Source: Trypanosoma brucei (lineage: Eukaryota). From it: 64,000 nucleotides of DNA. Shown here in pieces: positions 36,204-64,000 of this stretch. Below the pieces are notes generated by a model. It had not been told where the DNA came from. It saw nothing but the letters and a program-made list of their open reading frames with translations, and made no database searches. The stretch lies in assembly GCA_000002445.1 (NCBI GenBank), contig CH464491.1:3296001-3360000 (forward strand). The letters run 5' to 3'. Both the position numbers and the translations under genes were made by a program. The first letter of the stretch is position 1; the number at the start of each line of letters is the position of its first letter.

Positions 36204-36656
36204 ATGCACTTAACCTTAGGTGTGTTAACGGAGGATGAAGATGCCCGCACTGCCCTCAGTGAAGCTGTAGAAAACCAATGTCTGCCCCGATTTGAAAACA
36301 ACGATGGTCCCCTTTTGGATGTTTGGTTAGGTGAACGAAAACTATTTGGTCTCGTCGAGCGTGTCGCGCCGAATAACTTTCTGCAAGTTACCTCTGAGAA
36401 TGGAGGCACTGCAAAAGGCGAAAGCACTTGTGCGGATGATCCGCACGATATGCGCGTGACAGACAACGTTTCATTTATTATTCGCCTTTCATCGGTGCCA
36501 CATACGTCCCTTCAACCTGGCTTTACTGCGGAAGATGCCTTTGTGAACTGCACGCGCATTGTCATGGCTTATTCGGCACAACTGGAGCGCGGTGCGTCGG
36601 CGGAGCTCGTGGGCTCCGACGCAAGCGCTGAGTACATGCGCTTCACAGAAAAATGA
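36204..36656 (+). CDS. Small hypothetical protein (150 aa)
   Basis: ATG ORF in PTU orientation with coding-like codon usage. No motif recognised. Confidence 0.4.
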   Translation: MHLTLGVLTEDEDARTALSEAVENQCLPRFENNDGPLLDVWLGERKLFGLVERVAPNNFLQVTSENGGTAKGESTCADDPHDMRVTDNVSFIIRLSSVPHTSLQPGFTAEDAFVNCTRIVMAYSAQLERGASAELVGSDASAEYMRFTEK

Positions 36657-39600
36657 AGGGGAATGCCCCCGCTTGTGCGCATAAATGCGGGGCCAAATTA
36701 TTCAACTTTCTTATTCATGGTCGTAACAACCCCTTAATGATCGCACCTGTGAGGGCGCAGCGACCATATGCCACTGCCAACACTGCCCCAATCCCTTCTT
36801 CGTAACATTTTTTTTGTGGTTTTTCCAATGCCGCTTTATGCCTCCCGTAAACCAAGGCTGAAGGGAGATGCATAATTCCAATGGAGGGTTGCGCATCAGC
36901 GCATCCACCGCAGACCCTCAGTCACCCAAGCCTCAAGAACAGAAAGACTCCATACACCTCTGGTCGTGGGAACTGTTCGTGGATGCAAAAAGGAAGCGTT
37001 TCAAGCCTTCGGCGGTAACGGTACCCATCTCCTTTTATCTCCATTACGTAATTCAATCGTTGCATTTCCCTTTGCTGCCGCATGTTGAAAGCCGCTCTGT
37101 TGATGAACACCACTGGCGAGAAAGCTATGGAGTCGGCAGACACACTCACTTGTCATCCCCATAACATTTAGTGGTGCCAGTTAAACCCCGCGTATCACAA
37201 AAAACCCTCTTTCCGAGTGTCAATGTCCGACGGCAACCCAACACAGCATAGCAGGGTTTCGGCCGCCTTACTCTGATGCCAACATGACCGTGAGAAACTG
37301 TAGCAACGGCGCAGGCGTCACGCCCTGTGAGACTAGGAGCCCACAACCCGCGTTTTAAACTTCGGTATTAGAACCGAGGACTTCGGCCACGTCAACAAGA
37401 CAACAAACGCAAGCAACCCCCCGCATTCCACAACCTGATGGACCCTCATTGACCTTGTGAGCGAAGGGACACTCATCGGTGGCGGTTGGTACTCGGTAGT
37501 GAAAAGGAGGGGTTTAAAGGGAGGGATAATCGGCCCTCAAACTTCTAAGCTGTTTTTACTCATCTTGAACGAAGGCCACATAACACCCGGTGTTCATTTA
37601 ACACAGCGTGGAAAGCTATGGCGCCCGGACGGCTGCACCAGGGTTCTTTTGCTCGTCCCATACAAATTACTCCTTTACCAAATCTGCACCGTCCCAAGTT
37701 GGTTTCCTCCAGACCTTCCTGGTGATTCCGACCACCTCAACGTGGTGCCACTCTCGTCCGGTATCCCGTCTTATTGAGGGGAGCCAAGTGCCTGCAGCGT
37801 CTTGCTGGGACACCGTTTTTCACTTGTCCGTCCCTGGGCACGTGGCAGTGTGCCATCAGGAGTATCATCCGCATTGAGATGCTGCTGTCCAGTTATCGTG
37901 TTAGGAGGCTTATTGCCCCACCTGCCGCATGCCGTGCACTGGCAGATCTAAGACAAAAGAAAAATAATATATGGCGAGATGGTTTAAAGAAGAGACTCTC
38001 AGCCACATCTACTGGTAAGAACCAAATCGAGGCGCTTCACGGTGGTGGCCGGTAGTGGCACCAGTGGGGGAGAACTTCCGTGAAAGCACGATGAAAATTC
38101 TAAAAGAAAAAAGGGAATGAGAGATATTCAATAAGGATTTGGAATGCGTTTTGGTCTCGTGTATCTGTGAAGTTCGTTTGTTGTATGTGTTTTTTTTTAC
38201 CGACTTAAGAAGGACGGCCGACACGTTCATTGTGATTTAAGCACCTTTAATGAGACTGGCGTCGGTTCTCCGCATAACTGAAACGGAATGCAACTGGTTG
38301 AATAAGATGAACTATAGAGGGATGTGCAAAAGATGGAGGCACTGGTACGGCGCAATGTGTGAAGACGGCATAATGACCCTACACCCAAAAATATCGACAA
38401 AGTCAGAAACTGTGCTTGACGACGGTTGGGGTGAACGGGTTTGGAAGCCTCGAGGAAGTCACAAGATCGCTTGCAAGGGCAGGCAACTCTCAGGATGTAA
38501 AACCGTGTACGGCAGAGGCGTGCCAAAATATCATCTCCAGAAAACCAGAACACACATGCGGATGGAGTACCAAGGCCCGCTGGTGGTGACCGCGAGTCTG
38601 CCGAAAGCGGCAAACCGGTTAAACGAGATGTGACCGACTTGAGAACCAGCGCACCTCCGCCAAATCAAGGGAACAAGGAAGATGGCGAACAGGCTGATCA
38701 TGTCAACACGGACCAACTCCAGGAAGGACGAGAAAAGAGGACGGAAGATACGGCCACTGGAGGCGAGGGGTTCAAGGGGGGGAAAATAGCATAACAAACC
38801 GATATGAACTGGAAAGCGCTCCGTTTTTCGCTGTATTAAGGCTCACGAACAAATTAACAGTGTGAAAAAGAGTTGCGAGCTTCGCCCAAGACGTAACCCC
38901 GGGGGGGGTGGAGGTTGCACCGCAGGTAAGTCCAAGGACAGCGCGAATGCAGCGTGGGAAGCAGTGGGGAGCTCGTAACGGCCCCAAAGCACCAGAAAAC
39001 ACCAAGATCAAAGTTAATACTTGCCGCCCCACCCGAAAGTGCATGGACTAAAGATGCCCGGCAGTCCAAACCATGGTAATTCCAGAAGGTCGCTATGGCA
39101 AAGGTTTATGCATTAGACATAGGGCGGGCAAGTCACCAGGCTGTGTGGGAAAAGGCTTTCGTGCGCCGCGCAGATGATGTTCAGTTGGAGGGCGGAATAC
39201 AATTATTTGGGAAATCAGGCTGAGAAAGGTGGCGAAATAGTAATTACAAAAAAAAAACATCGACGGGAAGCACAACGGCGTGGGAGGATAACACCCAACA
39301 TTTGGGGCACCAGGCTGAAGAGGTCCATGCCGACGGTGCACTCGGCTTTTCGACCAAAAAAAGAACGAAACCTGGTGTGGACGTAAAAGGGTTGGGGTTA
39401 GGGGGGAGGGGATGCCGTGCAGCGAAAATTCCGCTCCCCAAAGGGGCTATTACCTCAAACAAGTTCCTAACAATAGGGACGGTGATATACTGTCTTTCGG
39501 CACAAAAGTGTTTATCAACATCCGAAAAAATGCGCACTAACGAAAAATAAATATCTCTTGTGCCATTTGAATTATTGATGCGTCGAAGTTGAGAGAGATG

Positions 39601-39694
39601 GCAGCCGTCTTGGGGATTGCTTTTGAGCGTAATCAAAATTGGAGGTGCACATTTCTTTGAACCTGTGTCTTTTCCTTTAACTGTTAATAGCAAG

Positions 39695-40957
39695 ATGGAG
39701 GGTTTGTGTGGGTGGTGGTGCATCCTATTTGTCGTAACAATCTCTCAAGCTGGTGAAGCACAAGAAAAACCAATTAACCGGGACGAGTTCGAAGCCCTGT
39801 GCAGGTTTATAAATCTCGCGGGAGACAGTGAGACACCAACGAAGGTTGAGAAAAATGTCAAGCGAACAGTGAAGAAAATTCTAACCGAAAGTGGGGTGGC
39901 CGATAGCAGGAAAAAGGAACTCGAAGATCTGCAAAAGCAAGCAGAGAAGTATCGAGAGGAAAACATGTCATTTTGGGAAACAGTAGGGATGGGGGAGATA
40001 AATAGGAGCTTGACGGACGCACTCTACGGGGAGAACCACAACGCCGTTGTTAAAGCACAAGGGAGTAGAGACCCCATCTGCGGCGCCAGAGAGGCGGACG
40101 CGGGTACGGAGGCAGGAAAGTCACTGGTGATCGACTTATTTTGCCTATGTTCCACATCGCCAGAACTTCACAACTTTCAGCAGATTTGCTGCGCCGACTG
40201 TCGAGGTGGAGCAAACGACCACCCCTGGATTCCTTCGGAAGATGGGAACCAGAGATGGAAGTTCCTTGCGCAAAAATGTGGAGAAACTAATCAAGGTGGA
40301 AAGCTCTCAACAGACTCCATTGAGAAGTCAGCCGAATTCTTTTTGAAAACATTGAAAAATCCCTTAGACTCAAGAGCGGAGGCACGCCGCACAGTGCTAG
40401 GAAGCACCAACGGCGATGTTAGCATTAATTGCAACGGTTGGAAAACTTCGGGAAACGGACGGTGCGTCAAATACGATCCAAACCACTTAAATGATGGGAT
40501 CCTGTCAATACCATGGTACGTAAAATTGGCGAAGGCAGCGACCCGAATGGATAAATTAATGGAAGCTGAAAAAACGTTGCGTGAGATTCTGGAAAATGTG
40601 GAGAAGTTGGAACGAAAGCAAGTCGCAATACCACCCAAACCTGCTGACGAGGGTAATGCCGTCCCGAGCGTCTCAAAAGACGTCGTAGAAAACAACAATG
40701 AAAATTCCGGCGTAAGTAATAATCGTGAGAAAAGAGAAAGCAAAGGTGAACTCAACGAAGAGAAATCACCAGGGAGTGAAAAGTCGCCGGAGGAAGTCGA
40801 CTGTGACGGCTGTAAACCCGAAGAAGGGTGTGAGGAGGGAAAATGTGAAAGCGAAAATGGGAGACACGACTCTGAAGGCACAAAAAGGCCACCTGTAAAG
40901 AGCCATTCTGCAACAATAATCGGTGGTTCGTTGAAGTTTTTCTTGCTTTTGGGATAA
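39695..40957 (+). CDS. VSG-like / GPI-anchored surface protein candidate (signal peptide, Cys-containing ectodomain, acidic Cys-rich C-terminal module, hydrophobic GPI-signal tail)
   Basis: Track ORF starts at TTG 39617; ATG is at 39695. N-terminal signal peptide MEGLCGWWCILFVVTISQAGEA. Helical region with an EFEALCRFINLAGD-type motif. C-terminal DCDGCKPEEGCEEGKCESENG followed by KS|HSATIIGGSLKFFLLLG, a 17-aa hydrophobic tail after Ser, as in trypanosome GPI-addition signals. Confidence 0.5.
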   Translation: MEGLCGWWCILFVVTISQAGEAQEKPINRDEFEALCRFINLAGDSETPTKVEKNVKRTVKKILTESGVADSRKKELEDLQKQAEKYREENMSFWETVGMGEINRSLTDALYGENHNAVVKAQGSRDPICGAREADAGTEAGKSLVIDLFCLCSTSPELHNFQQICCADCRGGANDHPWIPSEDGNQRWKFLAQKCGETNQGGKLSTDSIEKSAEFFLKTLKNPLDSRAEARRTVLGSTNGDVSINCNGWKTSGNGRCVKYDPNHLNDGILSIPWYVKLAKAATRMDKLMEAEKTLREILENVEKLERKQVAIPPKPADEGNAVPSVSKDVVENNNENSGVSNNREKRESKGELNEEKSPGSEKSPEEVDCDGCKPEEGCEEGKCESENGRHDSEGTKRPPVKSHSATIIGGSLKFFLLLG

Positions 40958-42579
40958 AGAGTTCTCCGTAAGCTTCAAAAGAATAAAAAGGTGGTGAAGG
41001 ACACAACTCCAGTCACACAAGCGTAAAAATATTAACCACTGTACCATTCCTGAGTTGTGTGATGGGAAATGAGTTCGCCAACCCAAAGTTTGGAACAAAA
41101 ATGGCCAACTATCGGGGAGGAGGGAGGCAGCGGGTACCACTGAACCATCTCCCTAGTCGCGGTGGTTCCCAGAATATTTTTTTGACGCGTAATGCGTAAG
41201 CCCTATATTATCACCGGAACTGAAAATTTGCTCGAAATATATTGATATTTTTGTTTTAAAGTGCAACGGAAACGAAACACGACAAGTACGTATTTTTATG
41301 AACGTCTAAAAGTTTATCAACTTCTCACATGCAAATTTACTCCCGAAAACAACTATATATAAAATGAAAGTAGTTGCAAATGCGCGAAGAATTTTCTTCT
41401 CCTGTCATCAATCACCGCCCCAAAGCGCCCGTTTAGTCCGTGGGAAAAGGGAGGAAACGTCCTTGCAAAAATAAAAAAACGCCGTGTTGAGACGGTATGA
41501 AATACAAGGGTGGAGAAAGGCCGCGTCCGTCCGCTAAACATCACCCGTTATTGCGGATTGCGTGTGACACTCTCAGGAAATGTTTTCGTGTCGGGAATGG
41601 GAACGCAGAACAACAACAGCACAGTTTCACAACCCCTGTCTTCTTTAAACGCCCGTATTATGTCAAAAAAAAAAAAAGACAGTACAACTGGAGCGCCGAT
41701 ACGCGTGACGTCGGGGGTAACTCTGTCTCTCTGTTTCGCGTAATCTTATCTTATTAGTGCCATCCGATCCGTGCCAGCAAGCCGCAACACTCATGTTGAT
41801 GGAATAACTCCGCCGCCGGCACACCGCCTTCTAAGAACCCGAAAAGGCGGTTTGGAAAATGGATGGTGGGAGGTTCCGCTCGAAGGTTATTTTATCAACA
41901 GCTGCAGCCCGGCAAACTTAACATGGCGTTGAATTAACGATAGCTGAGAAACTGCGCGACACTCTTCTCGAAACCAACGGACCGCTTCTTTCAGTCCCCT
42001 TCGTGTCATTTCATGAAACCCGTCTTGTCCAAATCCCCTCTCGGAATCTCACTGCTCTCCGTCGAAACAGATGGCGCGAAGCGATCAGAAGCCGGTGGTG
42101 GGATTCGGCCACACATCCGCCAAACCTGCCGATGTGATTCGAGTCTCGTTGGGAGGGGGAAGTCACATTATGCAGGTGGATTTGACCTTATATATCACAT
42201 TTTTCCTTCCCTTTCCTCACTGATGCTAGCACAGGGGGAACGTGGAGAGAAATGGGGAAATAATGGTGTGTACAAAGCTTATTTCCTTGCTTCAGACGAA
42301 GGTAGCGGGGGCCCGCGCAGAAGCTTACATGAAAGACGTCCCTGTCAGAACTGCTGGTGTTTCCAAAGGGAAGGAAAAGACAGACTAGTGAGGCACCCTC
42401 CGCCTGTAACGGCACAGTTTGGGAAATCTTAAAAAAAAACTCCCCCAGAGGGGGGAGGGGGAAGAAATATAGAGGGCCACACCCCCTGCCTCTGATACAA
42501 CATCGTTTCGTCATGACTCCTCCACATGTATGTGTTACACCTTTCATCAGCCTCACGGTGTTTCCGGCAGGGCGCATAT
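40958..42579. terminator. Convergent strand-switch region (cSSR) between PTU-A (+) and PTU-B (-); expected RNA pol II termination zone
   Basis: The last + gene ends at 40957 and the first - gene ends at 42580. No long ORF. Contains T- and A-runs and several short hairpins. Confidence 0.55.
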
Positions 42580-44058
42580 TTACATCCGTGGGGAGGAGCC
42601 CAGAAGAATACGATCCATATTTATTGGTTTAACGAACTTGGGAGTAGGCGAACCCGTTTGAGCAGACGTCCCATTTGGATGGGGTCTGGGCGACCGACCT
42701 CTCAACAACTCAAACCCGGGCTTGCAGTTCGGCGACCTCGTACCTTGAAACTCTGGGGGCGACGATCCCAGCGATAGTTCGGTTGCGCGCCGGCGCAGGT
42801 TTCCAACCCCGTCCCGCAGCCCGGTACCTGTTTTCCTCAAACCTCCCACGCTACGCCCCTTTGAACCACAGTTGGTCAGGCTACCGGAAAGCGCGCTTGA
42901 CGTGTGTCTGCGGTTTCCAGGGGATTTACCCACTCCCAACGTGTTGGTTGCCCTCATTGCGGAAGTCCACGCCGGCCCCGTGGCGAGGGAGTTGTACCGC
43001 TCTCTTTTTGTTGCTGGTCGAGCTGGAGCGCTCCACCCACGGTTCCGAGATGCCACACGCCCTAATGGAGGGGACACTTGTCGGTAGGAGCTCCCGACAC
43101 CACTGGCAGCAGAAACACCGCGATACCCCATGGGGGCAGCGCTCTTCATACGAAGCATGCCAAACCGCTGCTGGACAGACGTCTGGCTACGACCGCCACC
43201 TCTGCGCGCATTCATTTCCGTTTCCATCATCTTTCGCTTTGCCTGATGCGCGGACGCGAGAGCATACAGCCTTTCCCACGGTCCGCTTCCATCTTGGCGC
43301 CGTGAGGCAGCAACACTACGTCTAACAACATTCCCCCGAGAAACTTTGGGTGCAGGGGGGGCGGTCGTGCTTCGTGGCTTGGCTGCGCGGCTCCACAAGC
43401 TGCGCTCGCGGTTCGTTGGCCTCGTTGAAAAGGAGTTTTTTGGTTTGTACAGTGCTGTTGGCATTCTCGGTTGTGACAAGGCTTTGCGCCGTGGGTTCCA
43501 AACAGGCCTACGAGGGGCGCTCTCCTTGAATGGCCCCTTGTTGTTACGATATTCCTCCAACTCCCGCCGAACGCGTTTCCATAAGTCCTCAAGGGACACA
43601 TCCTCCCGATCGTCCACATCTCCCCTTGCATTCTTGTTCAACAATCCCCTCGAAGGGGTGGCTCTATTTCCCACATTTCCGCGCGCCAGCAGCCGGTTAC
43701 GACCAGCTGCACCGCTATTCTTCCCCACGGCTGGCTTGTTACGTTTGACATCATGGGTGCGACTGCGCCCCAACCCACTTGCCATTTCAAAGAGCTCCTG
43801 TAATTTTTCGTGAGACTGTTGCAAAACTGAACTTTGATCCATCCCTCCGGACATGGCGGGTTCGTAGAATGGAGTCGCCGTGGGTAACTTCGCAATACTG
43901 CCGCCGTGAAGGAGGTCATGCCCTTGTTCCAACAATTCCTCCAAGCGCGCCATGGGCCCACCGAGTTCATTGAGGTCCCTTCCCTCAACCCGACCCGCCA
44001 CTTCAAGCGGGCGGCTACTGCCCGTGGACGGAGAAGTATCAAAGGAATCACCACACAT
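42580..44058 (-). CDS. Hypothetical basic, Ser/Arg/Pro-rich low-complexity protein; paralog of 46074..46526
   Basis: Track ORF starts at GTG 44073; ATG is at 44058 (MCGDS...). 492 codons. Shares N-terminal (MARLEELLEQGHDLL) and C-terminal (DVDDREDVSLEDLWKRVRRELEEY) motifs with the next gene upstream. Confidence 0.5.
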   Translation of the reverse strand: MCGDSFDTSPSTGSSRPLEVAGRVEGRDLNELGGPMARLEELLEQGHDLLHGGSIAKLPTATPFYEPAMSGGMDQSSVLQQSHEKLQELFEMASGLGRSRTHDVKRNKPAVGKNSGAAGRNRLLARGNVGNRATPSRGLLNKNARGDVDDREDVSLEDLWKRVRRELEEYRNNKGPFKESAPRRPVWNPRRKALSQPRMPTALYKPKNSFSTRPTNRERSLWSRAAKPRSTTAPPAPKVSRGNVVRRSVAASRRQDGSGPWERLYALASAHQAKRKMMETEMNARRGGGRSQTSVQQRFGMLRMKSAAPMGYRGVSAASGVGSSYRQVSPPLGRVASRNRGWSAPARPATKRERYNSLATGPAWTSAMRATNTLGVGKSPGNRRHTSSALSGSLTNCGSKGRSVGGLRKTGTGLRDGVGNLRRRATELSLGSSPPEFQGTRSPNCKPGFELLRGRSPRPHPNGTSAQTGSPTPKFVKPINMDRILLGSSPRM

Positions 44059-46073
44059 GATGCCCCCCCCCACGTATATGCAGTCAACTAATTATAGGTA
44101 AATATACACAAACGAGAGTACACAGATGCGTGTTGCAAGTGCAATACACTCTTGATGAAGTCCACCTCCCAGCGTTACGCTACACGATTTCCTTTCTGTT
44201 TTTCCTTATCTTCTTTTTTCTTTTACTGTCCAGTCCTCGATTTCTCACTTTCCGCCAAATGTGCTCACGGAGCAACAGTGAGTTCCAAGGATCACGGAGG
44301 TAGACCACGAAAGGAAATATATATTTATATATATATATATATACGGCACCACTTAGGTGTTAATCTCCCGTACGCTTACTGAGACCACAAAACCGTGAGT
44401 TTCAACAGGTCCGACACACAACAAACCGAACAAAATTTTCTTTTCTATACTTTGCCGATAATTCTCTCCCGCGCCCTCTCGCTGCAGGAAAAGAAACTGC
44501 TGAGTGCCCCCTCACTTTACCTTTACACGTACGCACACTCAAACTTCAAATTCCGCCGAGCGTTTATTTTTGATGCTGCTTTGTGGGTGTGACAGGTAGG
44601 GTAAAGGGTACAAAACCTACGGCAACAGTAATGATAATAATAACAATAAATAACTGTGAAAATGACGAAACGAACGCAACAAAGGGGTTGAAGCACAGCA
44701 AGCACCAAGTCGAGGGCCCACTTGCTTCCAACTAATGCGGTGGTAAAAACAAAATATACGCTCCCTCTTTCCTTTCTCCCCGTCCCCGGCCTGGCACTTC
44801 AACCAGTCAATTATCTCTCTCCAATTCAATGGAACTCTCTACGTGCCCACCCTCGTTCGTCCCCTTTACGGGCCTGCGTGCAGCTTTCGTATCCGGTTGA
44901 ATTTTCGTGGACTCCAAACAGCAGGTCAAGTGTTCGTACCAAATATTCCCCTTATAATATATTTATATATTCCCTTTTTTCTTTTGTACACCGCTGACGG
45001 CGTTACTGGTGGATGGCAGGAAGAGCGAGTGGCACCGCCCCCTCACTGATTCCCCGCCGTTGCCTCTATGTTCTATTGCTTTTCCTCCCTTTATTTATCT
45101 TCTCTTGTTTTCTTTTGAATATGAAAATACCAATTACTCGTGATGCTACAGCCACTGTTAGGTGAAAGAAAGGTTTGCCCTTGCCTCCTTCTTTCCTCCT
45201 TCCTGTTCCCTTTTTTTCTTCTTTTTTTCCCCCTTCCTATAGGTGACAAGTTAATTTTTTTTTAAAAAAATAAGTAAATATGTAAACAATGCCTTCAACT
45301 TTTTGATTTGTTTGGTTCTTCTTTTTTTTTAAAAAAAAAAAAGATTAATCTTTGGAGGGGGTTAACCCGCTGAGGTGGTTGGAAAGGCAGCAAGAATTTG
45401 CACTCAAGGCCACAAGCGTAATGGGATCATGCAAATTCATGTGAACACTTAAATCGTCATAAAGGCAGTTGGGGGCCAAACAAAAACACGCAGGCACTTC
45501 TAGGCATGAATATATTTTAAATACATAAACACAAACACGCCATTAAAAATGGAATGCACACGAAACACACAATGCGGTTAACATTTTACAAGAGGAAACT
45601 GACGGGAAAAAAAAACGCAAATTGCACGTCACAAACCTGCAGCAGGGGCCGCACATTCTTAACACGATGGTTGCAAAATGCTCACACCTACATCAGGTAG
45701 TCATAATATGACTGCGGTGGTGAGGTCGCAGTTGAGGCCATATTATTTTTTAACACGCAACGTGGCAACGCTGCCCTCACACTTGTGCCGCAACTTGTGA
45801 AATAAGAGGAACACAAGAGATGGTAACAAAAAAAAAAAAACACTCAGCACTATAATCAAAAAAACGCACCAAACAAGCAGAAAAAAGAAAAATTATAAAA
45901 ATAAAGTAAACAACACAGCACGAAACGAAGTAGGAAGGTACATCTGCGTACATTACGAATTTTATGCACATACGGATATCGACCTGACGGTAAACATTAG
46001 TTCAATCCAAAACACAACCCTTAGAATTCCGATGGCATGTACCTTTATTGTAACCTCAGAAGCGAGGCGTATA

Positions 46074-47893: not shown

Positions 47894-48943
47894 TCACACA
47901 CGACACAAACCCGTATTTTCTTTTACGGTGTCGGTCCGCATGTGGCACTCGTTGTTGTAGCGGTGATGCAGCTCCTCCGCCTTTTTATGAACCTCCTCCA
48001 GAGACTCGTCAGCAGTCGTGTTCAAATTCCCCAGCACATAATACAGCGCCGGATCAATCATAAAGGCTTCAGAAGAAATTTTACCGCTTCCGAAGCTGCG
48101 GCAGTAGCGGTGGAATGCAAGAGATGTATAAAACCCTTTGGTACTGGGACACAACACCGCACTCTCAGAGTTGTCCCTCCTTGAATGTTCTGGTTGGCAA
48201 CGTAAATCGACCCTAGTGGAATCCCCACGACCGGAAAACATAAATTCCCGCACCCGCTGCCACTCATGTTGGCGCTCACATCGCTCATTCCATGCCGTAA
48301 CCCCGCGAAGGGTACCGCTACGAGTTAGATTCGCCACAAGGTTCATTTTCCAACTTTTAGAAGCAGCCGCTGCAGAGACTGCGTCGGGTACATTACCGCT
48401 CGGAACTACGGCGTCATATCGCCTGGGCACGCTGTCAAACCCCACCAATGATCTATCATCTCCAATATCCTCCTCTTTTCCCGCAAGGCTGCGGGTGGCC
48501 CGGCTGCGACGACGCGAAACCGATTTTCCCGATGCGCTGGACTGCAACCGTCGCAGTGCCCCAAGTCTGGTAGGGGCACGCTCCAAAGCTATGCGACTCT
48601 CCCATTCATCATCTGTTGCCCTCAAAAGCGCCTCCGTCCCAACGTCTTCCACATTAGTTAACCGCGCCAGCCTCTGAATCACAGCAGTTTTGCCATAACC
48701 AGACAATGGACTCACAGCGGGCTCATGATTATATGAGTGTGTGGAATCGTGCGCACGCTCATGTTGTTGCTGCCGATGCCTGCGCAGCAATTGCATGGCA
48801 AGCGAGCTCGCCTCCCCACACATGCCGCCACTCAGTGAAACAGCGGATTGCATTGATGACAATTGTGAAGGGCCCTCGGTAACGGTGGTATTGGCCCAAT
48901 GGCGACGCAGTACCCGACGGTAAACACAGCAGGTGCGTCTCAT
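47894..48943 (-). CDS. Hypothetical protein (start uncertain)
   Basis: Track ORF starts at TTG 48997; first ATG is at 48943, preceded by a T-run. 349 codons. A degenerate P-loop-like SPLSGYGKTAV is present, but no family is recognised. Confidence 0.45.
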   Translation of the reverse strand: MRRTCCVYRRVLRRHWANTTVTEGPSQLSSMQSAVSLSGGMCGEASSLAMQLLRRHRQQQHERAHDSTHSYNHEPAVSPLSGYGKTAVIQRLARLTNVEDVGTEALLRATDDEWESRIALERAPTRLGALRRLQSSASGKSVSRRRSRATRSLAGKEEDIGDDRSLVGFDSVPRRYDAVVPSGNVPDAVSAAAASKSWKMNLVANLTRSGTLRGVTAWNERCERQHEWQRVREFMFSGRGDSTRVDLRCQPEHSRRDNSESAVLCPSTKGFYTSLAFHRYCRSFGSGKISSEAFMIDPALYYVLGNLNTTADESLEEVHKKAEELHHRYNNECHMRTDTVKENTGLCRV

Positions 48944-49259
48944 CAAAAAAAAAAAATAGTGAGGGGAGTCTGTTGATGGAGAGAAGAGCAAAAACAAACA
49001 AGAAAAAAAGGTAACAGAAATAAAAGTAACAGGAAAATCGACTGACAGAGAGCATCAGAGTAACCTGCAGACGAAAACGCGGGAAGACCGCTGCACGTGG
49101 TAGCAGAGAAGGGGGCGCGATCTTTACTCCCGACATGAACTGAAAGAACCTTCGTATCTGTGCCTGCATGAACCCGTTGCAATAAAATGATGCATACAGA
49201 CACAGTTCGTGGATGCGACGTGTGCCTTCACGTACGGGGGAGAACCCATTTCCCAAAGC

Positions 49260-59346: not shown

Positions 59347-60150
59347 CTAGAAATCTGCGTCCAGAGAGAAAACCTTTGACGACCTTTCGGAACTCATCAC
59401 ACCAGCCTTCTGATACTCACCAACCTTCTTCTCGAAAAAGTTAGTTTTCCCCTGAAGAGAAATCATATCCATGAAGTCAAATGGGTTCTTCGAGTTGTAA
59501 TGACGGTCGTACCCCAAGGACACCAGGAGCCGATCGGCGACAAACTCAATGTACTGAGTCATCAGCTGAGAATTCATTCCAATTAAGCGGACAGGTAATG
59601 CATCGCAAATGAACTCTCGTTCAATTGATACTGCATTGCATATAATTTCAAGCACACGATCCCTCGGCAGCTTGTTTACGATATACTTCTCGTATAATAG
59701 GCAAGCAAAGTCAGTGTGCAGACCCTCATCACGTGAAATCAGCTCGTGCTGAAGGTGAGCCCGGGCATCAAGCCACGCTTCTTTAGCCAAAAAATGGNNN
59801 NNNNNNNNNNNNNNNNNNNNNNNNNNNNNNNNNNNNNNNNNNNNNNNNNNNNNNNNNNNNNNNNNNNNNNNNNNNNNNNNNNNNNNNNNNNNNNNNNCGC
59901 TTGCCGCGAAGAAAGCCAACACATGTTTGATGAAGTGTCGCTCGCCGTCGTCCAGCTTCTCCCAATCCGTCATGTCATTCCCAAGGTCGATTTCCTCCAC
60001 CGTCCAGATACTGCTCTCCGCCTCCTTGTACTTCTGCCATATGTCAGGGTACTTGATAGGGAAGATAACGTAGCGGTCGGGGTTTTCTGTCAGAAGTGGC
60101 TCCTCCACCTCCCCTTCCTTACGCGAGCGCTTGTGAGATTTGGGTGGCAT
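59347..60150 (-). CDS. RNR2: Ribonucleotide reductase small subunit (R2), array copy 1, interrupted by an assembly gap and a local frameshift
   Basis: Start and end are identical to copies 2 and 3 ([17 protein letters not shown] ... FSLDADF). A 100-N run at 59798-59897 sits inside the ORF. A 1-nt deletion relative to the other copies lies just 3' of the gap on the coding strand. Confidence 0.5.
59798..59897. other. Assembly gap (100 N placeholder)
   Basis: Run of 100 n characters. This unit is ~190 bp shorter than the neighbouring units, so the true gap is about 285-290 bp. Confidence 0.95.
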
Positions 60151-60952
60151 CGTTAGCACTGTCCTTGTTTTTCTTCTCTTGATGTGTTTTCAATATACGA
60201 CAGAGCAGCTAATGGAATGAATGAAGAGAAAGCTTGCACACAAGAGGCATATTGAGTAGTGAAGTAGCGAAACAGTGGAAAGAAGTGGACATCCCAACCA
60301 ACGCGCACAATACATTGCCATCGTGTAACTATCAGCACAAAAAGGGTAGTCGCAATAATTGCAACCGTCCCTCCACTATGGCATTACCAAATGGAAAAAC
60401 TAAAACAAGTCAAAGGGAAAAACAATGGGAACCTGACAGGTACAAAAGTGCAAAATGGTATGCCTCTTACACATTTCCCTTTCACCACCCTCACACATAG
60501 AAACTGTCATCAAGCATAGCGTGTAAATATTTGTCAGGTGAGGGCACTCTAAGCACTAATATTGAAACCAATTGTCCACCAAAGGTAAAAAGACAAGAAG
60601 AAAGGCATCTACTAAAGCGGACACATTCTCTCCCATCTATATCTATTTACATAGGTATATATCTATTTCCGGATTTACCCACGTTCGTACTTCCGTACGC
60701 ACGCAGGTTCTCGTGTATGCCTATGTACGATTCTATGTGTTTGCATGCAGGCGTATGGAGGCATACGTGCTGCTGCCCACAAGCTCATTTCCTTGTTATG
60801 ATATTTGTTAAAAACAACAGCCAGTACTCCAAGGAGGTGCAGTCGCTGACCTTACCAGAGTAACAGATATCTAACTCAATGAAAGTAAAGGGCATCAGCC
60901 CCATACTTTACAGTTCCCCTCACATACGGGCACGCACCAACGATAACATCCC

Positions 60953-61966
60953 CTAGAAATCTGCGTCCAGAGAGAAAACCTTTGACGACCTTTCGGAACT
61001 CATCACACCAGCCTTCTGATACTCACCAACCTTCTTCTCGAAAAAGTTAGTTTTCCCCTGAAGAGAAATCATATCCATGAAGTCAAATGGGTTCTTCGAG
61101 TTGCAATGACGGTCGTACCCCAAGGACACCAGGAGCCGATCGGCGACAAACTCAATGTACTGAGTCATCAGCTGAGAATTCATTCCAATTAAGCGGACAG
61201 GTAATGCATCGCAAATGAACTCTCGCTCAATTGATACTGCATTGCATATAATTTCAAGCACACGATCCCTCGGCAGCTTGTTTACGATATACTTCTCGTA
61301 TAATAGGCAAGCAAAGTCAGTGTGCAGACCCTCATCACGTGAAATCAGCTCGTTGCTGAAGGTGAGCCCGGGCATCAAGCCACGCTTCTTTAACCAAAAA
61401 ATGGCGCAGAACGAGCCAGAGAAAAATATGCCTTCGACAGCCGCAAACGCGACGAGCCGCGTAGGGAACGAAGTCTGACTGCCAATCCATTCAATCGCCC
61501 ATTTGGCCTTTTTCTCAATACACGGAATCGTCCTTATGGCATGTAGCAGTCGTTGCTTTTCGTCGGGATCCACAACATACGTATCGATCAACACGGAGTA
61601 TGTCTCACAATGGATATTTTCCATAGCAATCTGGAACCCATAGAAACATCGAACTTCAGGTACCTGCACTTCGCACATGAACCGTTCCGCAAGGTTCTCC
61701 AGCACAATGCCATCGCTTGCCGCGAAGAAAGCCAACACATGTTTGATGAAGTGTCGCTCGCCGTCGTCCAGCTTCTCCCAATCTGTCATGTCATTCCCAA
61801 GGTCGATTTCCTCCACCGTCCAGATGCTGCTCTCCGCCTCCTTGTACTTCTGCCATATGTCAGGGTACTTGATAGGGAAGATAACGTAGCGGTCGGGGTT
61901 TTCTGTCAGAAGTGGCTCCTCCACCTCCCCTTCCTTACGCGAGCGCTTGTGAGATTTGGGTGGCAT
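60953..61966 (-). CDS. RNR2: Ribonucleotide reductase small subunit (R2), array copy 2 (337 aa)
   Basis: Track ORF starts at GTG 61975; ATG is at 61966. R2 hallmarks are present: [29 protein letters not shown] (Fe ligands E/H), [18 protein letters not shown], conserved C-terminal Tyr in VGEYQKAG, and R1-binding tail FSLDADF. Confidence 0.9.
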
Positions 61967-62743
61967 CGTTAGCACTGTCCTTGTTTCTCTTCTCTTGATG
62001 TGTTTTCAATATACGACAGAGCAGCTAATGGAATGAATGAAGAGAAAGCTTGCACACAAGAGGCATATTGAGTAGTGAAGTAGCGAAACAGTGGAAAGAA
62101 GTGGACATCCCAACCAACGCGCACAATACATTGCCATCGTGTAACTATCAGCACAAAAAGGGTAGTCGCAATAATTGCAACCGTCCCTCCACTATGGCAT
62201 TACGAAATGGAAAAACTAAAACAAGTCAAAGGGAAAAACAATGGGAACCTGACAGGTGCAAAAGTGCAAAATGGTATGCCTCTTACACATTTCCCTTTCA
62301 CCACCCTCACACATAGAAACTGCCATCAAGCATAGCGTGTAAATATTTGTCAGGTGAGGGCACTCTAAGCACTAATATTGAAATCAATTGTCCACCAAAG
62401 GTAAAAAGAAAAAAATACACCCGATAAACAAGTGTCTTACTCCAGACATTAAAATCATCAAATGATATTAGCTATCTCACATGTAACAAGCGCACAGGTT
62501 CTCGTGTATGCCTATGTACGATTCTATGTGTTTGCATGCAGGCGTATGGAGGCATACGTGCTGCTGCCCACAAGCTCATTTCCTTGTTATGATATCTGTT
62601 AAAAACAACAGCCAGTACTCCAAGGAGGTGCAGTCGCTGACCTTACCAGAGTAACAGATATCTAACTCAATGAAAGTAAAGGGCATCAGCCCCATACTTC
62701 ACAGTTCCCCTTACATACGGGCACGCACCAACGATAACATCCC

Positions 62744-63757
62744 CTAGAAATCTGCGTCCAGAGAGAAAACCTTTGACGACCTTTCGGAACTCATCACACC
62801 AGCCTTCTGATACTCACCAACCTTCTTCTCGAAAAAGTTAGTTTTCCCCTGAAGAGAAATCATATCCATGAAGTCAAATGGGTTCTTCGAGTTGTAATGA
62901 CGGTCGTACCCCAAGGACACCAGGAGCCGATCGGCGACAAACTCAATGTACTGAGTCATCAGCTGAGAATTCATTCCAATTAAGCGGACAGGTAATGCAT
63001 CGCAAATGAACTCTCGCTCAATTGATACTGCATTGCATATAATTTCAAGCACACGATCCCTCGGCAGCTTGTTTACGATATACTTCTCGTATAATAGGCA
63101 AGCAAAGTCAGTGTGCAGACCCTCATCACGTGAAATCAGCTCGTTGCTGAAGGTGAGCCCGGGCATCAAGCCACGCTTCTTTAACCAAAAAATGGCGCAG
63201 AACGAGCCAGAGAAAAATATGCCTTCGACAGCCGCAAACGCGACGAGCCGCGTAGGGAACGAAGTCTGACTGCCAATCCATTCAATCGCCCATTTGGCCT
63301 TTTTCTCAATACACGGAATCGTCCTTATGGCATGTAGCAGTCGTTGCTTTTCGTCGGGATCCACAACATACGTATCGATCAACACGGAGTATGTCTCAGA
63401 ATGGATATTTTCCATAGCAATCTGGAACCCATAGAAACATCGAACTTCAGGTACCTGCACTTCGCACATGAACCGTTCCGCAAGGTTCTCCAGCACAATG
63501 CCATCGCTTGCCGCGAAGAAAGCCAACACATGTTTGATGAAGTGTCGCTCGCCGTCGTCCAGCTTCTCCCAATCTGTCATGTCATTCCCAAGGTCGATTT
63601 CCTCCACCGTCCAGATGCTGCTCTCCGCCTCCTTGTACTTCTGCCATATGTCAGGGTACTTGATAGGGAAGATAACGTAGCGGTCGGGGTTTTCTGTCAG
63701 AAGTGGCTCCTCCACCTCCCCTTCCTTACGCGAGCGCTTGTGAGATTTGGGTGGCAT
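62744..63757 (-). CDS. RNR2: Ribonucleotide reductase small subunit (R2), array copy 3 (337 aa)
   Basis: Same as copy 2. It differs at two codons (ENIHSE versus ENIHCE in copy 2; DRHYNS versus DRHCNS). Confidence 0.9.
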
Positions 63758-64000
63758 CGTTAGCACTGTCCTTGTTTTTCTTCTCTTGATGTGTTTTCAA
63801 TATACGACAGAGCAGCTAATGGAATGAATGAAGAGAAAGCTTGCACACAAGAGGCATATTGAGTAGTGAAGTAGCGAAACAGTGGAAAGAAGTGGACATC
63901 CCAACCAACGCGCACAATACATTGCCATCGTGTAACTATCAGCACAAAAAGGGTAGTCGCAATAATTGCAACCGTCCCTCCACTATGGCATTACCAAATG

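What the first reader, a model, noticed from the sequence alone, without database searches (positions are those of the whole stretch)
39695..40957. VSG-like, probably GPI-anchored surface protein gene as the last gene before the convergent strand switch
The ORF has a cleavable signal peptide, an alpha-helical Cys-containing ectodomain (EFEALCRFINLAGD motif, several paired Cys), a short acidic Cys-rich C-terminal module (DCDGCKPEEGCEEGKCESENG) and a 17-residue hydrophobic tail after KS (HSATIIGGSLKFFLLLG). This layout is shared by trypanosome VSGs, VSG-related proteins and VSG-fold receptors. It lies in a chromosome-internal PTU rather than a subtelomere, downstream of a 3-kb ORF-free region, and immediately before the termination zone. 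Genes in such terminal positions are often developmentally regulated or weakly expressed. It could be an uncharacterised invariant surface receptor.
Basis: partly seen in the sequence, partly recalled or inferred. Interest (0 to 1): 0.65.

Follow-up and report, generated by a model that had tools for sequence, protein, structure and literature searches.

The report
Known VSG-related surface protein gene VR2.1
This is a real, intact trypanosome gene for an invariant, probably lipid-anchored surface protein with the fold of the parasite's variable coat protein, but it is already annotated (VSG-related VR2.1 on Trypanosoma brucei chromosome 11) and its position at a strand-switch region is typical of its family.

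Summary

It is not new. The protein is identical to T. b. brucei TREU927 EAN80221.1, annotated "VSG-related, putative". By gene order it is Tb11.01.4560 = VR2.1 (by counting, Tb927.11.12710). VR genes were already described as chromosome-internal, at strand-switch regions and lacking 70-bp repeats. A published microarray study shows VR2.1 mRNA is well expressed and 2.5-fold higher in stumpy than in slender bloodstream forms.

It is not an archive VSG: it has no 70-bp repeats, no VSG 3'UTR 16-mer and no canonical C-terminal domain, and it is at least 99% identical across strains. The one modest new detail is a ~60-residue deletion in the helical hairpin, shared with Tb927.3.2500. Its function is unknown; a receptor role remains speculation.

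The parts
39695..40957 (+). Coding sequence of VR2.1 (420 aa plus stop). It matches the T. b. brucei TREU927 'VSG-related, putative' protein EAN80221.1 / Q382R0.
39695..39751 (+). Signal-peptide-like segment, residues 1-19 (MEGLCGWWCILFVVTISQA). The hydrophobic core is residues 6-17. Small residues at -3 and -1 (S-Q-A|G) suggest cleavage after A19.
   Evidence: Hydropathy. The cleavage site is inferred from the -3/-1 rule; no predictor was run.
39752..40624 (+). B-type VSG N-terminal domain, residues 20-310. It is a three-helix bundle plus a Cys-rich lobe with 10 Cys and two N-glycosylation sequons (N90, N103). It lacks about 60 residues of the helical hairpin found in other VRs and VSGs.
40625..40801 (+). 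Acidic, E/S/K/N/P-rich linker, residues 311-369, net charge about -9, predicted disordered.
   Evidence: Composition; pLDDT below 50 from residue 340
40802..40846 (+). Four-Cys module C-x2-C-x5-C-x4-C, residues 370-384. It sits where the last 4-Cys subdomain of a VSG C-terminal domain would be, but homology to that domain is not significant.
   Evidence: Alignment A2; phmmer of the C-terminus is not significant; no Pfam C-terminal domain hit
40901..40954 (+). Candidate omega site Ser403 plus a 17-residue GPI-signal-like tail, HSATIIGGSLKFFLLLG.
   Evidence: The tail has the same length and a similar pattern to the 17-residue VSG signals (e.g. NSFVIKKAPLLLAVLLF) listed. The tail is conserved in VR paralogues.
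39650..39694 (+). Pyrimidine-rich tract followed by AG dinucleotides at 39689-90 and 39693-94. This is a candidate trans-splice acceptor (inferred only).
   Evidence: Read from the sequence; not tested
36657..39694 (.). 3,038-bp stretch between the upstream 150-aa gene and VR2.1 with no annotated gene. It has no 70-bp repeats, and the + strand is purine-rich from about 38.0 to 39.5 kb.
40958..42579 (.). Convergent strand-switch interval (1,622 bp) containing the VR2.1 3'UTR. It has no tRNA, no Rfam match and no VSG 16-mer.
42580..44073 (-). First gene of the converging transcription unit: a hypothetical protein, 492 aa in the T. equiperdum annotation, with no Pfam domain.

Best explanation
The ORF is VR2.1, one of the 'VSG-related' (VR) genes of the Trypanosoma brucei group. 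These derive from B-type variant surface glycoproteins but sit permanently in the chromosome core. Inferred steps: the gene is transcribed by RNA polymerase II as the last gene of a housekeeping polycistronic unit, and its mRNA level is set after transcription. Published data show the mRNA is higher in stumpy than in slender bloodstream forms. The inferred path of the protein is as follows. It enters the ER through a cleaved signal peptide. Five disulfides form in a shortened class-B VSG three-helix-bundle domain. The 17-residue C-terminal tail is exchanged for a GPI anchor at about Ser403. The protein is then displayed on the surface or flagellar-pocket membrane as an invariant minor component beneath or among the VSG coat, held on a ~90-residue flexible acidic stalk. 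It is not a substrate for antigenic variation. Its molecular role is unknown; the most likely one is binding a host or vector ligand, as in other VSG-fold or three-helix-bundle trypanosome receptors.
Against: No experiment on this particular protein was found. It was not among the proteins in the held text of the cultured bloodstream-form surface-proteome tables. The C-terminal hydrophobic stretch is the weakest among the VSG-like tails compared (mean hydropathy 1.74 against about 2.1-2.9). No SignalP or GPI predictor could be run. The EATRO1125 copy has a different C-terminal end. The C-terminal 110 residues are modelled with low confidence. The receptor role has no direct support.
Confidence: 0.8

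Rival explanations
1. It is a silent or atypical member of the VSG archive, that is, raw material for antigenic variation that happens to lie in the chromosome core.
For: It has a B-type VSG domain. It was catalogued in the strain VSG inventories as 'VSG 1373' and 'VSG 1125.1293'.
Against: There are no 70-bp repeats upstream. It has no conserved VSG 3'UTR 16-mer and no canonical C-terminal domain. The hairpin is truncated by about 60 residues. It sits at the same syntenic core position and is at least 99% identical across strains. Its neighbours are housekeeping genes.
Confidence: 0.03
2. It is a decaying relic: transcribed only because it lies in a polycistron, and not making a functional protein.
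For: It was not detected in the cultured bloodstream-form surface proteome. Its terminal position in the transcription unit is one where many low-value T. brucei-specific genes accumulate. The GPI-tail hydrophobicity is weak.
Against: The ORF is intact in seven sequences from T. b. brucei, T. b. gambiense, T. equiperdum and T. b. equiperdum. The CDS is about five times less diverged than its flanks. All family-invariant Cys and Gly/Trp positions are kept. The fold prediction is confident. The mRNA is abundant and stage-regulated.
Confidence: 0.1
3. The protein is secreted or shed rather than membrane-anchored, because the C-terminal tail is too weak to direct GPI addition.
For: The tail contains only about 9 hydrophobic residues, interrupted by Lys, and ends in Gly. 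The EATRO1125 copy has an altered tail.
Against: The tail has the same 17-residue length and the x-S-x-x-I...L..LL pattern of proven VSG GPI signals. The tail architecture is conserved in VR paralogues. One of those paralogues scored PredGPI 0.996 and was surface-labelled.
Confidence: 0.07

Closest known systems
VSG-related (VR) genes of T. brucei (Marcello & Barry 2007; cell-surface phylome Fam09), e.g. Tb927.2.2060, Tb927.3.2540, Tb927.5.110 and Tb927.5.130
   Same: It has a B-type VSG N-terminal domain and a VR-type C-terminal tail ([KR]RPP...S...L.LF.L). It sits at a chromosome-internal strand-switch position, lacks 70-bp repeats and is invariant between strains. It carries this annotation itself.
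   Different: Together with Tb927.3.2500, it lacks about 60 residues of the helical hairpin that the other VRs keep. Unlike the chromosome 3 VR cluster, it is not in the H3.V/base-J de-repression lists.
Class-B variant surface glycoproteins (mVSG1954 8b3w, VSG3 6elc, VSG11 8ok4, VSG615 8ok8)
   Different: Sequence identity is only 17-20%. The bundle is shorter. It has no canonical C-terminal domain, no 70-bp repeats, no 3'UTR 16-mer, no telomeric or subtelomeric location and no variation.
Tb927.3.2500 (annotated hypothetical / 'T. brucei spp.-specific protein')
   Same: It is the closest paralogue (35% identity, E=3e-53). It has the same hairpin deletion and the same overall layout and tail.
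   Different: It lies on chromosome 3 inside a transcription-unit end repressed by H3.V and base J (RPKM about 1.6 in wild type). It has the canonical four-Cys spacing in its C-terminal module.
VSG-derived or three-helix-bundle receptors and effectors of T. brucei (Fam1 Tb927.6.1310, ISG65, ISG75, factor H receptor, HpHbR)
   Same: These are invariant surface proteins built on a helical bundle. Fam1 is likewise derived from b-type VSG, located at a strand-switch region and lacking the VSG C-terminal domain.

Membership tests
B-type VSG N-terminal domain (Pfam PF13206 VSG_B) | Profile match above the curated threshold | tested here: met
   157.7 bits against a cut-off of 25, E=6e-46, residues 56-303
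B-type VSG N-terminal domain (Pfam PF13206 VSG_B) | Conserved multi-Cys framework (about 10 Cys in the domain) | tested here: met
   The mature domain has 10 Cys. C129, C150, C152, C195 and C246 are invariant and C36 and C257 nearly invariant in a 49-sequence alignment.
B-type VSG N-terminal domain (Pfam PF13206 VSG_B) | Class-B VSG three-dimensional fold | tested here: met
B-type VSG N-terminal domain (Pfam PF13206 VSG_B) | Full-length helical hairpin (profile positions 1-103) | tested here: not met
   Only profile positions 104-351 match. A gap of about 60 residues is shared with Tb927.3.2500.
Functional or archive VSG (antigenic variation) | 70-bp repeats upstream | tested here: not met
   No such array in 34-48 kb
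Functional or archive VSG (antigenic variation) | Conserved 16-mer in the 3'UTR | tested here: not met
   No match with up to 3 mismatches downstream of the gene
Functional or archive VSG (antigenic variation) | Canonical VSG C-terminal domain | tested here: not met
   No Pfam C-terminal-domain hit at E up to 10. The C-terminus alone has no significant match to VSG or VR C-termini.
Functional or archive VSG (antigenic variation) | Subtelomeric or expression-site location and sequence diversity between strains | tested here: not met
   Neighbours are core housekeeping genes. Identity is at least 99% in seven sequences.
VSG-related (VR) genes | Chromosome-internal, at a strand-switch region, without 70-bp repeats (definition quoted in PMC2771046) | tested here: met
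VSG-related (VR) genes | Identity with a catalogued VR gene | tested here: met
   Database names are 'VSG-related, putative'. Gene order places it at Tb11.01.4560 = VR2.1.
VSG-related (VR) genes | Restricted to the T. brucei group | tested here: met
   In an exhaustive HMMER search of 1.84 billion representatives, nothing above 36% identity was found. Of the 20 hits whose names were looked up, all were T. brucei-group except one T. congolense VSG (P0053, E=1.4e-8). The remaining hits were not named.
GPI-anchored surface protein | Cleavable N-terminal signal peptide | tested here: inconclusive
   A hydrophobic core at residues 6-17 and an S-Q-A|G site are present. No trained predictor was available.
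GPI-anchored surface protein | Small omega and omega+2 residues, a spacer and a C-terminal hydrophobic stretch | tested here: inconclusive
   The S403/H/S pattern with a 17-residue tail resembles VSG 17-mer signals, but its hydrophobicity is the lowest in the set. PredGPI or NetGPI was not available.
GPI-anchored surface protein | Biochemical demonstration of the anchor and of surface exposure | not testable with these tools
   Only the paralogue Tb927.2.2060 has published surface-labelling data.
Trypanosome helical-bundle receptors (ISG65, FHR, HpHbR) | A defined host ligand | not testable with these tools

The most novel reading that the evidence does not exclude
VR2.1 and Tb927.3.2500 would form a 'short-stalk' subclass of VSG-fold proteins. 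Their truncated bundle on a long flexible acidic tether would serve as an invariant receptor for a host or tsetse ligand in transmission-stage (stumpy) parasites, analogous to the factor H receptor.
Probability: 0.15. Interest if true: 0.6.

Novelty: already known. Interest (0 to 1): 0.2.

Why it matters
VR proteins are among the few invariant, surface-exposed, VSG-fold proteins of bloodstream T. brucei, and none has an assigned function. If VR2.1 were shown to be a stumpy-enriched receptor, it would add to the small set of invariant host- or vector-interaction molecules (TfR, HpHbR, ISG65, FHR). It could then be of interest as a diagnostic or transmission-blocking target. As it stands, the finding re-discovers an annotated gene and a documented family property. 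The only increment here is structural: confirmation of the class-B fold and the shared ~60-residue hairpin deletion.

Tried and rejected
- The word-indexed homology search returned only the gene's own cluster. The exhaustive HMMER search was needed to find paralogues.
- The AFDB50 fold library was unavailable.
- The original VR paper (Marcello & Barry 2007) is not held, so the family definition is taken second-hand from PMC2771046 and PMC3605285.
- A full-text search for Tb927.11.12710 found nothing, and Tb11.01.4560 appears in only one paper.
- A search on 'Fam9/Fam09' was swamped by unrelated genes.
- Premature-termination silencing was considered. The gene is absent from the Reynolds 2016 tables of genes de-repressed on loss of H3.V or base J. 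The PNUTS/JBP3 paper's supplements held no matching identifiers, probably because of different gene naming, so that check is uninformative.
- I looked for anything hidden in the 3-kb upstream stretch or the strand-switch interval. There was no tRNA, no Rfam family, no tandem or 70-bp repeats, no Pfam domain in the short ORFs and no VSG-like remnant by tblastn.
- Homology of the C-terminal 4-Cys module to the VSG C-terminal domain is rejected as unproven. It rests on positional alignment only, and phmmer is not significant.
- The window is not T. equiperdum. It differs by one residue in the protein and about 1% in the flanks, and matches TREU927.

Full report
**1. The observation**

The ORF listing shows a 446-aa frame at 39617-40957 (+).

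All quoted motifs are present:
- a hydrophobic N-terminus, MEGLCGWWCILFVVTISQAG;
- EFEALCRFINLAGD;
- a Cys-rich body, with Cys at 36, 129, 150, 152, 165, 166, 169, 195, 246 and 257;
- an acidic E/S/K/N/P-rich stretch;
- DCDGCKPEEGCEEGKC;
- KS followed by the 17-residue tail HSATIIGGSLKFFLLLG.

The context is also as stated.
- Every ORF of 250 aa or more is on the + strand up to 40957 and on the - strand from 42580.
- A public annotation of the near-identical T. equiperdum contig places the previous gene at window 36204-36656 and the next, convergent, gene at 42580-44058.
- This leaves 3,038 bp without an annotated gene upstream and a 1,622-bp convergent interval downstream.

**2. What it is**

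Sequence profile and fold:
- Pfam gives a single strong hit, VSG_B (B-type trypanosomal VSG N-terminal domain): E=6e-46, 157.7 bits against a threshold of 25.
- The only significant solved-structure relative by sequence is metacyclic VSG1954.
- An AlphaFold2 model built on 49 family members is confident over residues 21-320 (pTM 0.70) and low-confidence from about residue 330.
- Foldseek against the PDB returns class-B VSGs as its 27 best hits.

So the VSG fold, specifically class B, is established as far as prediction allows.

**3. Identity**

[quoted passage not shown] These come from T. b. brucei TREU927 (EAN80221.1 / Q382R0, chromosome 11), T. b. gambiense and T. equiperdum. The cluster also holds 'VSG 1373' and 'VSG 1125.1293' from the strain VSG inventories.
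- The window protein is identical to the TREU927 sequence and one residue (V145A) from T. equiperdum.
- Neighbouring genes are housekeeping: TYW3, prefoldin-2, a DHHC palmitoyltransferase, a CPSF30-like CCCH/zinc-knuckle protein, a UBR-box E3 ligase and a ribonucleotide reductase small-subunit array.
- Published identifiers anchor the gene order. Prefoldin-2 is Tb427tmp.01.4520 = Tb927.11.12680, and the RNR2 array is Tb927.11.12780-12820. CPSF30 is Tb11.01.4600.
- Counting genes from either side puts the VSG-like gene at Tb11.01.4560, which Jensen et al. 2009 call 'VSG-related VR2.1'. By the same counting it is Tb927.11.12710; this last step is an inference.

**4. It is not an archive VSG**

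- There is no 70-bp repeat array upstream, nor any comparable tandem repeat.
- The conserved VSG 3'UTR 16-mer is absent.
- There is no canonical VSG C-terminal domain by Pfam.
- The C-terminal 110 residues alone have no significant similarity to other VSG or VR C-termini.
- Seven sequences from different strains and subspecies are at least 99% identical.
- The CDS differs from T. equiperdum at 2 of 1263 nt, against about 1% in the flanks.
- tblastn with 118 family proteins finds no other VSG-like segment in the 64-kb window.

**5. What was already known about the family**

- The same paper lists VR2.1 (Tb11.01.4560) among genes up-regulated in stumpy versus slender bloodstream forms: 2.48-fold, with a signal of 18,586, comparable to well-expressed genes.
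- Jackson et al. 2013 (PMC3605285) describe VR genes as T. brucei-specific and structurally similar to T. congolense VSGs.
- Gadelha et al. 2015 (PMC4587319) found several VR proteins enriched in the bloodstream-form surface proteome.
- Their tables list the 36%-identical paralogue Tb927.2.2060 with enrichment 1781, SignalP 0.973 and PredGPI 0.996, in family 'Fam09'.
- VR2.1 itself does not appear in the held text of those tables.

**6. Transcription context**

In T. brucei, H3.V and base J can terminate Pol II before the end of a unit and so silence terminal genes, many of them VSG-like.
- The closest paralogue, Tb927.3.2500, and the VR Tb427.03.2540 are in exactly such a repressed, de-repressible unit end.
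- Tb427tmp.01.4560 is absent from those lists.

Together with its robust array signal, this argues that VR2.1 is transcribed normally and regulated after transcription. Whether termination marks lie upstream or downstream of the gene could not be checked here.

**7. Details that may be new**

- In a seven-sequence alignment, VR2.1 and Tb927.3.2500 lack about 60 residues between the first and second long helices that other VRs and VSGs possess.
- This fits the Pfam match, which starts at profile position 104.
- It also fits the model's shorter helices: H29-63, H70-111 and H273-310.
- The inference is a shortened bundle carried on a ~90-residue acidic, probably disordered tether.
- The C-terminal module has four Cys spaced C-x2-C-x5-C-x4-C. 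It has lost the last Cys position of its paralogues and gained one three residues after the first.
- The tail has the length of the 17-residue VSG GPI signal and partly its pattern (HSATIIGGSLKFFLLLG against NSFVIKKAPLLLAVLLF). It is the least hydrophobic of those compared.

**8. Mechanism and confidence**

Shown:
- gene identity;
- the class-B VSG fold (predicted);
- invariance between strains;
- core location at the end of the transcription unit;
- absence of the hallmarks of switching VSGs.

From the literature:
- stumpy-enriched mRNA;
- surface exposure of other family members.

Inferred:
- signal-peptide cleavage near A19;
- GPI addition near S403;
- surface or flagellar-pocket display;
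- a ligand-binding role.

I put the identification at above 0.95. I put the 'GPI-anchored invariant surface protein' mechanism at about 0.7. A specific receptor function is at about 0.15-0.2.

**9. Verdict**

However, the feature is an already annotated member of a described family, so novelty is low. The function of VR proteins is still open, which keeps a small residual interest.

Noticed in passing
window 59347-63766 (-): This is a tandem array of three ribonucleotide reductase small-subunit ORFs. Two are 340 aa. One ORF is 270 aa and matches only the C-terminal part of the Pfam profile in its best stretch. The array corresponds to the Tb927.11.12780-12820 RNR2 array and runs off toward the window end.
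   Followed up: partly
P0008/P0111 (Tb927.3.2500), outside the window: This is the closest paralogue (35% identity). It shares the ~60-residue hairpin deletion but is annotated only as hypothetical / 'T. brucei spp.-specific'. It lies in a transcription-unit end repressed by H3.V and base J, next to VR Tb427.03.2540.
   Followed up: partly
P0006 (EATRO1125 'VSG 1125.1293'), residues 416-425: The EATRO1125 copy ends ...KFFFAFGIKSSP instead of ...KFFLLLG, which breaks the hydrophobic tail. This could be a frameshift or assembly error, or an allele without a GPI signal.
   Followed up: no
window 38000-39500 (+): The part of the upstream gene-free stretch nearest the gene is strongly purine-rich on the + strand (AT skew up to 0.40, GC skew 0.13-0.22). 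It may be a long UTR. No function has been assigned.
   Followed up: partly
window 39707-39709 (codon 5) and codon 72: There are polymorphisms between strains: Cys5/Arg5 in the signal peptide and Arg72/Gly72. TREU927 and T. equiperdum OVI carry C5/R72. The 427, EATRO1125, gambiense and T. b. equiperdum sequences carry R5/G72.
   Followed up: no
window 42580-44073 (-): The first convergent gene encodes a GC-rich (0.56-0.59), Arg/Ser/Gly/Pro-rich protein of about 492 aa with no Pfam domain. The long ORFs overlapping it on the + strand (42675-43325, 43346-43813) look like compositional artefacts.
   Followed up: no
window 47894-48997 (-): By gene order this is Tb11.01.4590, which a review reports as an inner-membrane component of the mitochondrial tRNA/protein import machinery. 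It had no Pfam hit here.
   Followed up: no
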